This document shows positions 16,590 to 21,107 of a stretch of 37,503 nucleotides of DNA, piece by piece. A program made the position numbers and the translations under genes. The notes under the pieces are model-generated. The model searched no databases. It had not been told where the DNA came from and was given only the letters and a program-made list of their open reading frames with translations. The first letter of the stretch is position 1, and each line of letters starts with the position of its first letter. This stretch comes from Nemertoderma westbladi (Eukaryota; Animalia; Xenacoelomorpha): contig JAUCBJ010001466.1 of the NCBI GenBank assembly GCA_032718475.1, positions 1 through 37,503 of the forward strand, given 5' to 3'.

Positions 16590-16990
16590 TGAAACTTTAA
16601 TTATTAAATATTAACAAACATTATTAATATTAATAATGTTATCAAACAAATCTGTTAATAAATCTTCAAATAAATCTGTTAAACCCTTTGACCATCTGAA
16701 ATTCTAGTCGATTAAGATATCGCGGCACCCACCGATATACTTGAAAGACAAAATTCTAGAATCAGTGGTTAACGTCCCCAGACGAATAAATTGGTGCTCA
16801 TCCTAAATATTAAATATTTAATAAATATTTACAACGTTTGTTATAACAAATGTTAAAATATAGAAAAGTTATAAATTAAATCTGTTAAAACTTTAGATCC
16901 TCTAAAATTCTAGTCGATTAAGATATCGTAGCACTTACCGATACTCTTAAAAGACAAATTTCTGGAATTAAGGATCCTAGTCCCCAGACA
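16590..16990. repeat. Diverged ~205-bp tandem duplication
   Basis: aaatctgttaaa...aaattctagtcgattaagatatcg...gtccccagac occurs at about 16672-16782 and 16878-16989, each preceded by a similar AT-rich stretch. Confidence 0.8.
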
Positions 16991-17630
16991 CATGTACAGT
17001 CAATAGCCGATAAAATTCATAAAATCATGTATAAGGGGAATATTGACAATTAAAGAATCACTATTAAATAGCATCCCAGATCTGTATGCATGAGAATTAC
17101 TCTAATTCTACCGCTAGCTTTCCATAATGTCACCATAGTAACAACCATGCTAGAATTAGAAGCGAGTTAAAAGAACAATAGAAATCTTGCCCCATTGAAT
17201 AGCATGCGGAATAAATAGCACCTTGCTAGTATCCAGGGATACATAATAATAACGTGGCATTCTGGAAGGCATTTGACTAATGGACAAATGGCCCGAATTT
17301 GTACAAATTGTGACAGGAATGTTGAATTTGTGTATTTATAGGTGAATGTTACTACTAAAGTGTGTTTACAGTAGCGAGTCGCAGTTGTGAAAGTTACCCT
17401 GCCTCTATAGCAAGTACCTCCAGTATATCTAAGCTCTTGGGACGGACAGTGGAGTGACTCGCGCTGGTTATTGTTGTCGTTGTGTAGCTACTACGTTGGC
17501 GAGAGGCACAGCGGCGACAGTACATCAGTGCTGACGATCTTGCGCTGTCCGGGGGCACTGAGGGGGAGGCAGCGACGATCGCTAGCCTAATTATTATTAA
17601 CTCTAATATCAATAAACTTATATAGCAGCT

Positions 17631-19927
17631 ATGACTGAGTTAATAGAAGATGATCTTGGTATCAGGGAGCGATATACCCTACCATTGCAAGCGTTTGTTG
17701 ATAGTTTAATAAGCGGCGACGCTAGTCAACATACTACGGAAGATGATGGCTGTTATATCGAACCGCCAATGTCAAAGGAACAGCTCAAGCGTGAATTGGA
17801 CTATAGAAAATTCACCACTCGCTATACGCATCATAATGGTACGTATATGGACTTCTTAACTACTGGTCATCCTATCGATTTACACGATACGGAGGATGTA
17901 GACACCGAAAGGGAAATGATTCTATTTAAATATCATACCCAGCGGAGTCGGAATAATAAACTGAGAATCGAACATGAAAATTCTATTCGAAACCGACTCG
18001 AAAGAGAAGATGTTGAAGAGCTGGATAAATGCAGTGACTTCAACGAATAATTGGAATTCTTGAGAGAAACATATCTCAATGTAGCCAGTCAACAAAATCT
18101 AGAAACTCGATATCCTCAAGGTATACATCATAACCCTATGATAGAACTCAAACGACTCTATTTTACTATGATGTATCTTACCGCCGATCGACCGCTACCT
18201 GTTGTACCGGATAGCTTCGAACAGATGGAGGAATATTGTAAAACTGGAGAAAGATCACCAGCATTTCCCCTACAAGATGTGCGTCTTTGGTATTACTGCG
18301 ATGAATGCCCTAGACCCAACCAACAAACGGAAAGACAAAAACATCCGCGGAGACGTTGCGCTAAACACAGTTTTACTCGCTATACTTACGGGAGTTTCGA
18401 GCGAAACTTGTTCAACATATCACCTACGCTCGCTTGACTCAAACGATCCTTAAATAAACCTATGATCAGAGTTCCGGAATACTCGGTCAGACCTCCTCAT
18501 TCCCTGGTGAGACCTCAGAATCTTGATCCTAATAGTATGACGGATCCTCCTGAACTGTACTCATTGTTCAAAGATCTAGTGTTACCCGAACAATTAGTTG
18601 GTGGCACTCCGGTTGTGGGCTCCCTGATATTTGCCCATCCTACCTAGCCGGATTGGGACGCGGACATCTAATATCGCCGTTCAACCCGTATAACCGGTTT
18701 AACCCCGATACAACCCATCACCGAGGTAGAGGAGAGTGTTGTACGAAACGCGTTAGACGCTATTCGACAAAAGATCGAAAAAGGAACCTACGATTGTTTA
18801 GACAAACGTAAATTGCAACTACAAGTCCAAGCGGTAAAATAATTAGCTTTACCCCAGTTCGATCGGGAAATCCAGAATCTCGAAGAAGATATCGAACTAG
18901 GACGAACCTACCTTCTACAAGAGTTTTTGAACGAACGCTTCCAACGACAAGGGGAGGAAAATCAGCTCGAGGAGAAACACATCGAAATGGATGAGAGAGA
19001 AGAAGCAGCTTTAGCCCAGCCAGAAGCTCAAATCCTTATGACTGATCTCTATTCCAAAACCATTATGGATCCTTCGATGGTTCCCCATTTCGGAGACAAA
19101 CTCTTCGCCACAGTACAACCCCAACTGGTTGATATCAACTTAAGATGTAGAGATCTTATCGCTGACGCTCCTATGTTACAACGTCCGCCAATCGAGGCTG
19201 CTCCTGTTGACGGTATACTCGTTGAACCTCCGGACAATCGAGCGGATCTTGTCCGTCGTATGGTACACGAGGTCAACCTACATGCTAGACCTTTACCGAA
19301 CTCATTTTATGGGATCAAAGATCACCCCTATTATGTCAATTTAACTCAATATTATATGCTTCCGTCGAGCAAAAATCTCGCACTCCTAGCTACAAGCTGA
19401 TGAAGCGTGTTGGCGAGAATATTTCAACTAAATTTGTTCGCAAGTATCTTAGGAATATTAATCCTAATAACCTGAATTCCTATAACTTGATCAACTTCAT
19501 CCGTCAAGATCCGGAATACGGTGACTTGTTCATAAACTCGCATCCAGAGCTACAAGAAGTTCATAGACGACCATATGAATATAAAGCCAGAGAACGCGAG
19601 TTGGAAAGAACCATCAAACCGAGGAAATTTCTCACTACTCACGGTCAACCTACCGCTATCGTGCAAACGACCCATCAGGGACCAGTAAGAGTCCTGAAGC
19701 GCACTCTAAGAGTTGTTCAACCTCGTTCCACTGAGGTTGATATCGATCAACCGGGTACCTCGACTGGCGGATACACCGACCGTAATCCGAGACCTTCCGA
19801 TGCAATTGTATTGCACCCCTCACCCAGGTGTTATAGCCCTCCTAGTAAAGTGGCTCGCCCCAAAGAGAAAAGGACTCTTACTAGCCTCAAAAAACTTTGT
19901 AAACGCCGTTCACAAAAGAAGGACTAA
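17631..19927 (+). pseudogene. Orphan accessory ORF of the LTR element, about 765 codons, with several in-frame stops and one frameshift
   Basis: ORFs starting at 17631, 18051, 18462 and 18927 share one frame; a frameshift near 19360-19400 leads to 19400-19927. The homologue at 35878-36825 reads through the first stops. Confidence 0.8.
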
Positions 19928-20005
19928 TAGTTTAGAGTATTTTTGTATTTTAGAAACTGTGATTTTTTAGATTTTATAGACTTAAATCCCATTTTCTGGG
20001 AGCGG

Positions 20006-21107
20006 TGTAAAAGCTTTTGCGGACATAACAAGTCATTTTTACACAATGCGCAGAATACTCTAAAATAGCCCTAAAATTATTAAACTATTAGAACCAAGAT
20101 GACGAAATCTGTCAGCTGATTCTTTGTGTACGTGGAAGTTCTTTGTTCTGTCTTATTCAGCCAATCAGAGCAATTTTCACTTTACGGCTAACAGAAACCT
20201 ATCTAAGAAACTCGCGCAATGCATTATGGCCTTTATTATTATTTCTGAGAATTAGAACCAACTCTGAATTCTGTGCTTCTGTACGGAAGTTTCAGACTTT
20301 GGCCTAGGAACATCTGATGGCCTTGGTTATAGGAACGTAAATCTATTAACTTGTCACCTGCATTTCATCTCTCATTTCATACATTTGTATACATTACTTA
20401 CTTAACTCATTTCACCGCACTATTTTACTTCTGTTTTATAGTATTTATTGTTGTTATATTAATGGATGTTGATGTTATATTTGGAGAATACCGATAAATA
20501 ATCATAAACCCCTCAATCTTATTGATTACTGAGGTAAGAGGAATAGAGTCTACCGGTAGCAACTGCGACTTAAATTATAGTGGTTTGTGTGAATTAAATG
20601 CTATTTCATAATCCCTACGTATGTCAGTTGCAATCCTCCTTATATATGATCAAATTCAGTGATGGTCGGCAAATTAGTGTGAAATAGTGTAAAGTAGTGT
20701 GAAGTCGTGTGAAGTAGTGTGAAGGTTAATAAAGCATCTCCTAAAGAATGCGCTATTTACGAAACTCTGTGGCCATCTAGTTGTGATTAGTATAAGTCAA
20801 AACTCTGTTTTTATACTTAAAGCGCCACGTCCTAAAGGAACTGTTGGTATTTCCCCGAAAGTAAATATAGTTGTCAGAGATTATATAGTAGCGATCAATC
20901 GAATAATACAGTAGGTCTGCACAGCAATACTTCCCAAGGAATCCGAATCCAGTCTCCCACACCGTGGGTCATACGCCGCGCACGGACTGGCTTCGGCAGA
21001 TGTAACTTCAGTAAACCAGGTAATTGGTAAGGGCTAAAGTCGATTTATAAACAAGAGGACAACTAAAATTGGCAGGTTAAACTGCTAAAGGTCTAAAAGC
21101 GCGAACA
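20006..21107 (+). repeat. LTR (1102 bp, TGT...ACA)
   Basis: Canonical termini. E-box (cagctg), CCAAT (ccaatcagagc) and several identical blocks are shared with 34022-35227. Confidence 0.85.

What the first reader, a model, noticed from the sequence alone, without database searches (positions are those of the whole stretch)
16990..21107. LTR retroelement family with a large orphan, non-env ORF before its PPT and 3' LTR
Seen: two diverged, oppositely oriented copies (here and 34022-37465) share a ~640-bp leader, one long ORF, a PPT-like tract and a 1.1-1.2-kb TGT...ACA LTR. The reconstructed ~765-aa protein shows no RT, RNase H, integrase, protease or gag zinc-knuckle motif, and no signal peptide or transmembrane segment, so it is not a typical env. 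Established: extra ORFs in this position are usually env-like or uncharacterised. Inference: this is a separately expressed, probably nuclear accessory factor, for example an anti-silencing or host-manipulating protein. The gag-pol part of the family is not identifiable in the window.
Basis: partly seen in the sequence, partly recalled or inferred. Interest (0 to 1): 0.85.

Follow-up and report, generated by a model that had tools for sequence, protein, structure and literature searches.

The report
Orphan zinc-motif gene in LTR retroelement
A repeated jumping-gene family in an animal genome carries, where retroviruses keep their envelope gene, a long non-membrane gene with no detectable relatives that was likely kept by selection and sits just behind a predicted RNA hairpin, so it would most plausibly be a regulator of the element's own RNA.

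Summary
The two copies are real, and both end in PPT + TGT...ACA (1102 and 1206 bp). But neither holds 'one long ORF': copy 1 has five in-frame stops and a frame break, copy 2 lacks ~775 bp, and two stops are shared, so a single 765-aa protein is inferred. The frame is selected (omega 0.56-0.67, p 0.001-0.013). The protein has no signal peptide, membrane segment or homologue in any search. New here: (1) a BEL/Pao integrase end lies 1.5 kb upstream on the same strand and is covered by family contigs at similar depth, so pol is partly in the window, though its link to the ORF is not closed (about 55%); (2) a CxxC-x16-CxxH motif with an arginine cluster is kept in both copies; (3) a sense-strand 109-nt hairpin (z -4.2/-6.2) and an acceptor-like AG precede the ATG. 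Best guess: a spliced, nuclear, Rev/CERV-like regulator of the element's genomic RNA (0.3). Non-env extra ORFs are a known kind; I found none described for BEL/Pao. No expression or structure evidence.

The parts
13965..16076 (+). 3' part of a decayed BEL/Pao pol (integrase zinc finger, core, DUF5641 tail), interrupted by an A-tailed insertion at about 14955-15502; probably but not certainly the same element as the orphan ORF
   Evidence: Pfam Integrase_H2C2 E 2e-8 and DUF5641 E 3.7e-20; 78 homologues, mostly BEL/Pao polyproteins with Peptidase_A17/DUF1759/DUF5641, best 47%; tblastn extent; contigs break or join across the insertion
16084..16096 (+). PPT-like tract plus TGT, 7 nt after the pol stop; same motif class as the PPT/LTR junction of the finding
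   Evidence: a pattern drawn from these junctions hits only 16084, 19997 and 35236 in the window (pattern chosen after seeing them)
16093..16997 (+). Block A: AT-rich spacer (or a relic/independent LTR) with TATAAA at 16329, ATTAAA at 16369, a GTAAGT donor-like site at 16413 and a diverged duplication 16668-16783 / 16874-16989 (79%)
   Evidence: not similar to either LTR above shuffles; multi-copy to about 16835, dip at 16836-16906
16998..17630 (+). Shared non-coding leader, 84% identical between copies
   Evidence: no sense frame with omega significantly below 1
17443..17551 (+). Predicted long RNA hairpin, sense strand only (copy 2: 37015-36908)
   Evidence: z -4.24 and -6.23, antisense -0.50 and -2.99; 47 consensus pairs, 3 with changes on both sides; covariation only modest
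17623..17628 (+). TAGCAG acceptor-like site 2 nt before the ATG, kept in both copies
   Evidence: sequence; a diverged X4 contig rejoins the window at 17619. Splicing not shown
17631..19927 (+). Decayed orphan ORF, copy 1: stops at codons 140, 269, 339, 347, 404; frame uncertain about 18570-18770; frame break about 19290-19400; basic C-terminal tail
18297..18368 (+). C-x2-C-x16-C-x2-H motif (residues 223-246) with an arginine cluster, all four ligands kept in both copies
   Evidence: such a pattern in 0.08% of 5000 shuffles of P0001; no Pfam match for the stretch
19994..20005 (+). Polypurine-tract-like sequence, identical in both copies
20006..21107 (+). 3' LTR, TGT...ACA, 1102 bp; first 16 nt identical between copies, U3-like part diverged
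   Evidence: one X4 contig has another flank before 20005
35306..36825 (-). Orphan ORF, copy 2: first 315 codons open, then stops and indels, lacking about 775 bp
34022..35227 (-). 3' LTR of copy 2, 1206 bp, abutting a 35-bp satellite
36826..37503 (-). Leader of copy 2, running off the window end

Best explanation
This is the 3' end of a repeated LTR retroelement family, likely BEL/Pao, that carries in the env position a non-membrane orphan gene likely kept by selection, whose product would be a nuclear zinc- and arginine-motif protein made from a likely spliced RNA and would bind a predicted hairpin in the element's own unspliced RNA to license its export or use. Shown: two decayed copies, PPT and LTR ends, no hydrophobic segment, no homologue, the Cys/His motif, the AG before the ATG, a BEL/Pao pol end 1.5 kb upstream. 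Inferred: selection on the frame (about 0.9); non-env accessory role (about 0.8); pol and ORF in one element (about 0.55); a single ~765-aa protein (about 0.6). Predicted, untested: splicing into the AG, which would leave the hairpin in the intron and so only in genomic RNA; nuclear location; RNA binding; export function (about 0.3).
For: Frame kept: in 17631-18569 the ATG frame has 2 stops in copy 1 and none in copy 2, none shared, while the other two frames share 12 and 15. Codon model omega 0.67, p 0.013 over all 488 aligned codons; 0.51, p 0.003 for the first 296; 0.56, p 0.001 for 431 codons with the frame-uncertain stretch left out; the shifted frames, the three leader frames and three LTR frames are not significantly below 1. 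No membrane or signal segment. CxxC-x16-CxxH plus Arg cluster in both copies; basic tail in both. Hairpin folds on the sense strand of both copies, 3 double-sided changes. Link to pol: same strand; summed contig depth stays far above the insertion control from pol to 16835 in X3 and X4 and again from 16998; one X4 contig bridges 16403-16783; the PPT/TGT motif after pol resembles the one before the LTR; depth is not raised at the start of block A as it is at the LTR start in X4. Precedent: CERV of C. elegans Cer1 is made from a spliced mRNA and needs its Cys loop and an Arg for genomic RNA export; Rev binds a structured RNA region (PMC10309623, abstract, passages and section 15 read).
Against: No RNA holder was available, so splicing and expression are untested. 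No confident fold (pLDDT 34 and 37). NES-like patterns are no more frequent than chance (7 vs 8.2). Hairpin covariation is modest: P 0.007-0.018 for so few broken pairs at the observed transition share, but 0.20-0.35 if only transitions are allowed; P 0.03-0.04 vs 0.15-0.16 for three double changes. In a coarse scan 7 of 124 copy 1 windows reached z -2.5 or lower and the hairpin was not among them; in copy 2 it was the strongest of 85. A diverged X4 contig has unlike sequence over 17503-17618, which includes the 3' arm. Simple counting omega 0.45 is only just below a transition-matched neutral range of 0.48-0.93, 18531-18990 alone gave 1.12, and the partitions were chosen after seeing the data; only two sequences were compared. 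The pol link is open: pol ends in a canonical stop-PPT-TGT, depth dips at 16836-16906 (X3 13,286; X4 9), many contigs have other sequence before 16998, and copy 2's 40 upstream bases are not found in block A. At ~765 aa the protein is far larger than Rev (recalled, about 116 aa) and larger than CERV (517 aa).
Confidence: 0.3

Rival explanations
1. Architecture rival: the BEL/Pao pol ends normally, block A is its own 3' LTR, and the ORF belongs to a second LTR family whose 5'-truncated copy was fused to it near 16990-16998 by nesting and deletion. The ORF is still a terminal non-env gene, of an element whose pol is unseen or absent.
For: Stop, PPT-like tract and TGT directly after DUF5641; TATA- and polyA-like signals in block A; block A unlike the LTR; depth dip at 16836-16906 and a minority-type junction before 16998; in X4 the ORF bins are deeper than the pol bins.
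Against: Block A shows no clear LTR end, continues in family contigs to at least 16783-16835, and is not deeper than pol; near-identical PPT/TGT class at both sites; an internal deletion in copy 1 explains the junction equally well. Summed contig depth is no copy number, so these depth arguments are weak in both directions.
Confidence: 0.35
2. Function rival: the protein works at DNA or chromatin level, as a transactivator of the LTR or an anti-silencing factor, using the CxxC-x16-CxxH motif to bind DNA; it is transcribed from a promoter in block A and the hairpin is a translation or small-RNA element of its 5' UTR.
For: Acidic N-terminal region, zinc-like motif and basic tail; TATAAA and a donor-like site in block A; plant extra ORFs such as Grande GENE23 are nuclear and Retand TRP28 is proposed to bind DNA (PMC7264820 passages; PMC11963269 abstract).
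Against: No DNA-binding or chromatin domain detected; does not explain why a sense-strand hairpin sits just 5' of an acceptor-like site; family regions are not CpG-depleted (observed/expected 0.84-1.35), which gives no hint of DNA-methylation silencing.
Confidence: 0.25
3. The ORF is an unrecognisably diverged gag-like structural gene of a non-autonomous element that borrows pol in trans; the hairpin is a packaging or dimerisation signal.
For: Length, helical N-terminal half and a single Cys/His motif are gag-like in outline; ORF bins exceed pol bins in X4.
Against: No match to Pfam gag families, PDB sequences or 78 BEL/Pao proteins (best E 0.22); motif spacing differs from CCHC knuckles; the leader continues upstream with non-LTR sequence.
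Confidence: 0.1
4. It is an env or fusogen whose signal peptide comes from an upstream exon, or a captured host gene fragment decaying neutrally.
For: Env position; acceptor-like site before the ATG; some belpaovirids carry env-like genes (PMC8742986, whole text); omega is only moderately below 1.
Against: No membrane anchor, only 8 Cys in 590 codons, strongly charged and Pro-rich sequence; frame conservation and omega below 1; no host homologue among 1.84 billion representatives.
Confidence: 0.05

Closest known systems
Belpaoviridae (BEL/Pao) elements with an env-like third gene, e.g. Roo, mosquito chuvirus-like glycoprotein BELs, Atlas virus (PMC8742986 whole text; PMC13524379 passages; PMC9094657 search listing)
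   Same: BEL/Pao integrase end upstream, extra gene between pol and PPT, LTR of 1.1-1.2 kb
   Different: The extra gene has no glycoprotein features or fusogen homology; it is separated from pol by 1.55 kb that starts with a second PPT-like/TGT motif; linkage to pol is not proven
CERV of C. elegans Cer1 (PMC10309623; abstract, passages, section 15)
   Same: Large orphan non-env retrotransposon protein with a Cys-rich putative zinc site and nearby Arg, basic NLS-like patch; proposed here to come from a spliced RNA
   Different: Cer1 was found through a search on LTR accessory proteins and is recalled as a Gypsy element; CERV shares exons with gag, has H, M and G domains and a C4-type loop; no homology was detected in general searches and no direct comparison was run; CERV's export role is shown experimentally, this one's is not
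Non-env ORF3s of bdelloid LTR retrotransposons (PMC5408684 abstract) and plant additional ORFs such as Grande gene23 and Retand TRP28 (PMC7264820 passages; PMC11963269 abstract)
   Same: Family-wide extra ORF between pol and the 3' LTR, long pol-to-LTR region with repeats
   Different: Bdelloid ORF3s are recognisable enzymes or membrane proteins; the plant regulatory candidates are mostly antisense; these are not BEL/Pao
HIV-1 Rev/RRE and MPMV export structure (as summarised in PMC10309623 section 15)
   Same: Structured RNA in the region retained only in unspliced RNA (predicted here), Arg-rich protein from the 3' part of the genome
   Different: No sequence relationship; protein several times larger; binding and export untested

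Membership tests
Belpaoviridae (BEL/Pao) | BEL/Pao-type pol | tested here: met
   Upstream fragment: Integrase_H2C2, DUF5641, hits are Peptidase_A17/DUF1759 polyproteins; only the integrase end is present
Belpaoviridae (BEL/Pao) | That pol and the ORF/LTR are one element in the family | tested here: inconclusive
   Adjacent, same strand, similar depth, but dip at 16836-16906 and minority-type junction at 16998
Belpaoviridae (BEL/Pao) | LTRs of 0.2-1.2 kb preceded by a ~10-nt PPT | tested here: met
   1102 and 1206 bp, PPT-like tract directly before TGT; 3' LTRs only; range
Belpaoviridae (BEL/Pao) | 5' LTR followed by a tRNA-Arg/Gly PBS, gag, and PR-RT-RH-INT order; target-site duplication | not testable with these tools
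   No 5' end in the window; no genome held; no related loci
env-like gene | Signal peptide, membrane anchor, Cys-rich ectodomain | tested here: not met
   Max 19-residue hydropathy 1.39, 0.49, 0.96 for P0001, P0002 and copy 2's open part; the frame-uncertain stretch shows no hydrophobic run in its other open frame listed
env-like gene | Homology to a known fusogen | tested here: not met
   fold comparison uninformative
gag | Capsid domain or CCHC knuckle | tested here: not met
   sequence level only, a capsid fold is not excluded
Rev/CERV-like export regulator | Made from a spliced RNA | not testable with these tools
   Acceptor-like AG in both copies; no RNA holder listed
Rev/CERV-like export regulator | Cys/Arg RNA-binding-type motif and NLS-like patch | tested here: met
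   Motif level only
Rev/CERV-like export regulator | Nuclear export signal | tested here: inconclusive
   7 pattern matches vs 8.2 in shuffles
Rev/CERV-like export regulator | Conserved structured RNA target | tested here: inconclusive
   Strong predicted hairpin, modest covariation, no Rfam match
Rev/CERV-like export regulator | Required for export of unspliced RNA | not testable with these tools
   Needs experiment
CERV family | Sequence or fold homology to CERV | not tested
   No CERV sequence was fetched; general searches gave no hit at all

The most novel reading that the evidence does not exclude
A BEL/Pao (Belpaoviridae) lineage has independently evolved a complex-retrovirus-style module: a large orphan zinc/arginine protein from a spliced RNA plus its own hairpin response element, gained by fusing an ordinary BEL 3' end, whose old PPT and LTR survive as an internal relic, to a downstream gene and a new LTR.
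Probability: 0.15. Interest if true: 0.75.

Novelty: new variant of a known kind. Interest (0 to 1): 0.45.

Why it matters
Extra genes of BEL/Pao elements described in the papers I saw are env-like. A selected, non-env orphan in that slot, next to a conserved hairpin, would extend retrovirus-style accessory regulation to this family and give a concrete protein-RNA pair to test; how LTR retrotransposons export unspliced RNA is known for few elements. If the link to pol or the RNA role fails, it remains one more uncharacterised extra ORF, a recurrent class.

Tried and rejected
No homologues: word-index search with P0001, 0 of 4644 candidates at E 0.01, lengths 324-1033 only; phmmer of P0001 over 1.84 billion representatives, 0 at E 0.001; the C-terminal part P0002 went only to Pfam, PDB sequences and the BEL set. 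Pfam's only hit on P0001 was DUF7009, 19.8 bits, under its cut-off of 27; PDB best E 0.57. No related loci in viral or metagenome contigs. Exact look-ups found 0 of 3 proteins. AlphaFold models were unusable and the viral fold search on the first had 0 matches at E 0.001, which is uninformative. The ESM Atlas gave no answer. No whole genome is held. No RNA holder listed. Rfam: two chance-level matches only. Block A as a degenerate copy of the LTR: rejected, scores at shuffle level. Coding in the leader: no sense frame significant. A hammerhead-type reading of the hairpin's 3' arm (recalled core motif) was dropped: the second core motif is absent and Rfam found nothing. Reading 21108-22384 as this element's gag behind a shared LTR: no PBS-like start after 21107, lower depth, no match to 78 BEL proteins or Pfam; not supported, not fully excluded. 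Earlier scan notes on this genome or sequence: none. Literature searches for a BEL/Pao non-env third ORF listed none by title or abstract start; the term with a slash could not be searched, subscription journals and Repbase are not covered, and no supplements were opened.
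Full report
Observation. A self-comparison of the window finds the two copies in three blocks: 16998-18990 with 37463-35466 (83%), 19766-20021 with 35467-35212 (88%) and 20462-21107 with 34657-34022 (71%). Both copies have the same purine-rich tract followed by TGT; the first 16 bases after it are identical, the next ~440 diverge, and homology ends at the same ...ACA, after which the copies run into unrelated sequence. 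That is the pattern of 3' LTRs of two subfamilies: 20006-21107 (1102 bp) and 35227-34022 (1206 bp). One contig of run X4 has a different flank right before 20005. No 5' LTR, PBS or target-site duplication can be examined, and no genome is held. Thousands of short, diverged contigs from four public DNA runs of one organism (at most 3 samples) lie on the region (41,494, 27,137, 13,524 and 565 on 13600-22500), so this is a repeated family; the summed depth is not a copy number.

The ORF. Neither copy has one long ORF. Copy 1 reads from the ATG at 17631 with 5 stops in 590 codons and then a frame break near 19290-19400. Copy 2 is open for 315 codons, then has stops and indels and lacks about 775 bp. 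Two of copy 1's stops (18645, 18669) are also stops in copy 2, so in about 18570-18770 the ATG frame is probably not the family's frame, or the gene is split there; P0001 residues of roughly 315-380 are unreliable, and the family's intact frame was not established. The frame is nevertheless real: over 17631-18569 the ATG frame has 2 stops in copy 1, none in copy 2 and none shared, whereas the other frames share 12 and 15. A codon model with free transition bias gives omega 0.67 (p 0.013, 488 codons), 0.51 (p 0.003) for the first 296 codons and 1.12 for 18531-18990, and 0.56 (p 0.001, 431 codons) with the frame-uncertain stretch left out. The two shifted frames, three leader frames and three LTR frames are not significantly below 1. 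A simple counting estimate of 0.45 is only just under a transition-matched neutral range of 0.48-0.93. This is moderate purifying selection diluted by decay after insertion, from two sequences, with partitions chosen afterwards.

The protein. No 19-residue window exceeds hydropathy 1.39; there are 8 Cys in 590 codons; the N-terminal part is acidic, the middle Pro-rich, the tail basic in both copies. It is not env-like. Residues 223-246 form C-x2-C-x16-C-x2-H with an Arg cluster, all four ligands kept in both copies; a loose version of the pattern occurs in 0.08% of 5000 shuffles. NES-like patterns are at chance level. No homologue was found among word-indexed candidates (0 of 4644), 1.84 billion representatives, Pfam, PDB sequences, 78 BEL/Pao proteins, or viral and metagenome contigs. 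The C-terminal ~170 residues were not in the two large searches. Models had pLDDT 34 and 37, so the fold search says nothing.

On the same strand, 13965-16076 is the integrase end of a BEL/Pao pol (Integrase_H2C2, DUF5641; 78 homologues, mostly Peptidase_A17/DUF1759 polyproteins, best 47%), broken by an A-tailed insertion. Seven bases after its stop comes a PPT-like tract and TGT of the same class as the one before the LTR (pattern chosen after the fact). The following 0.9 kb (block A) is AT-rich, holds TATAAA, ATTAAA and one GTAAGT, and a 79% internal duplication, and is no more like the LTR than shuffles are. In 70-bp bins, depth from 15700 to 16835 never falls below 81,375 in X3 and 281 in X4, against 148 and 2.4 in the insertion; one X4 contig bridges 16403-16783; at 16836-16906 depth falls to 13,286 and 9; it is high again from 16907. 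Many contigs leave the window's sequence before 16998 and resemble copy 2 there (27, 17, 6 contigs in X1, X2, X4; only the best-supported rows of these tables were shown), and copy 2's 40 upstream bases are not found in block A. So copy 1 has a minority-type junction at about 16990-16998. Either one element with a relic internal PPT/LTR and an internal deletion in copy 1 (my estimate 0.55), or a normal BEL end fused to a second family (0.35). The data in hand cannot close this.

The leader. It is 84% conserved and apparently non-coding. Positions 17443-17551 fold into one long hairpin in both copies, on the sense strand (z -4.24 and -6.23; antisense -0.50 and -2.99). The joint fold has 47 pairs, 3 changed on both sides. 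Tested without fitting to both, 10 of 15 and 11 of 15 changed pairs are kept; P is 0.007-0.018 at the observed transition share but 0.20-0.35 with transitions only, and P for three double changes is 0.03-0.04 or 0.15-0.16. A coarse scan missed it in copy 1 (7 of 124 other windows reached z -2.5) and ranked it first of 85 in copy 2. A diverged X4 contig is unlike the window over 17503-17618 and rejoins at 17619. Rfam has no match. TAGCAG lies 2 nt before the ATG in both copies.

Mechanism. If that AG is an acceptor, the ORF is made from a spliced RNA and the hairpin stays only in unspliced genomic RNA, the arrangement of a Rev-type regulator and its response element. A retrotransposon precedent is CERV of Cer1: spliced mRNA, nuclear, Cys loop and an Arg needed for genomic RNA export (PMC10309623; abstract, passages and section 15 read). 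I commit to this reading at about 0.3; every functional step is predicted, since no RNA run was listed. A DNA- or chromatin-level role is nearly as likely (0.25); diverged gag (0.1) and env or neutral cargo (0.05) are less so. The architecture rival is independent of these.

Known and new. The ICTV profile gives belpaovirids one to three genes, the third env-like (PMC8742986, whole text); BEL env-like genes are reviewed in PMC13524379 (passages) and PMC3118150 (passages). Non-env extra ORFs are known in bdelloid rotifers (PMC5408684, abstract) and plants (PMC7264820 passages; PMC11963269 abstract), and unchecked scan notes list several in Gypsy elements of other genomes, which lowers novelty of the general arrangement. 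Seven searches listed no BEL/Pao element with a non-env third ORF, judged from listings only; coverage is limited and supplements were not opened. Verdict: a real, probably selected orphan gene in the env slot of an LTR family, probably BEL/Pao; a new variant of a known kind; interest 0.45.

Noticed in passing
window 10537-12063 (-): Uninterrupted 508-codon SH3KBP1/CD2AP-like host gene with two SH3 domains, a Pro-rich middle and a coiled-coil-like tail; nearest named relatives only 42-46% identical over the SH3 part (hemichordate, sea cucumber), so the host is an animal without close relatives among the hits; possible retrocopy or intron-poor gene.
   Followed up: partly
window 1-6900: Satellite of 55-bp units (with 53-bp variants), about 120 copies, strongly strand-skewed.
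   Followed up: no
window 22404-23626: Element with 162-bp inverted ends (98%) around a 270-codon ORF that looks by eye like the GIY-YIG end of a Penelope-type element (recalled motif); Pfam gave no supporting match.
   Followed up: partly
window 25726-26866 and 29971-31101: Two 1.14-kb direct repeats (97%) flank a minus-strand non-LTR-type reverse transcriptase ORF (27364-29997, RVT_1 E 2.5e-29); LTR-like flanks around a LINE-like RT, or a LINE inside a tandem duplication.
   Followed up: no
window 21108-22384 (+): Decayed multi-copy coding remnant with a long charged, coiled-coil-like stretch into which copy 1's LTR end runs; resembles a retroelement gag N-terminus from recall only, no match found.
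   Followed up: partly
window about 14955-15502: Low-depth, A-tailed insertion that interrupts the BEL/Pao integrase.
   Followed up: partly
window 33589-34021: 35-bp tandem array directly against the end of copy 2's LTR.
   Followed up: no
window 9297-9840 (-) and 31761-31872: Fragments of a LINE-type RT family in opposite orientations.
   Followed up: no
window 24050-24460; 12648-13371; 32465-32893: Palindromic or inverted-repeat elements, probably MITE-like.
   Followed up: no
window 17931-18210: Three 120-nt windows inside the ORF of copy 1 fold at z -4.1 to -5.6 in a coarse scan; the matching copy 2 windows did not reach the cut-off.
   Followed up: no
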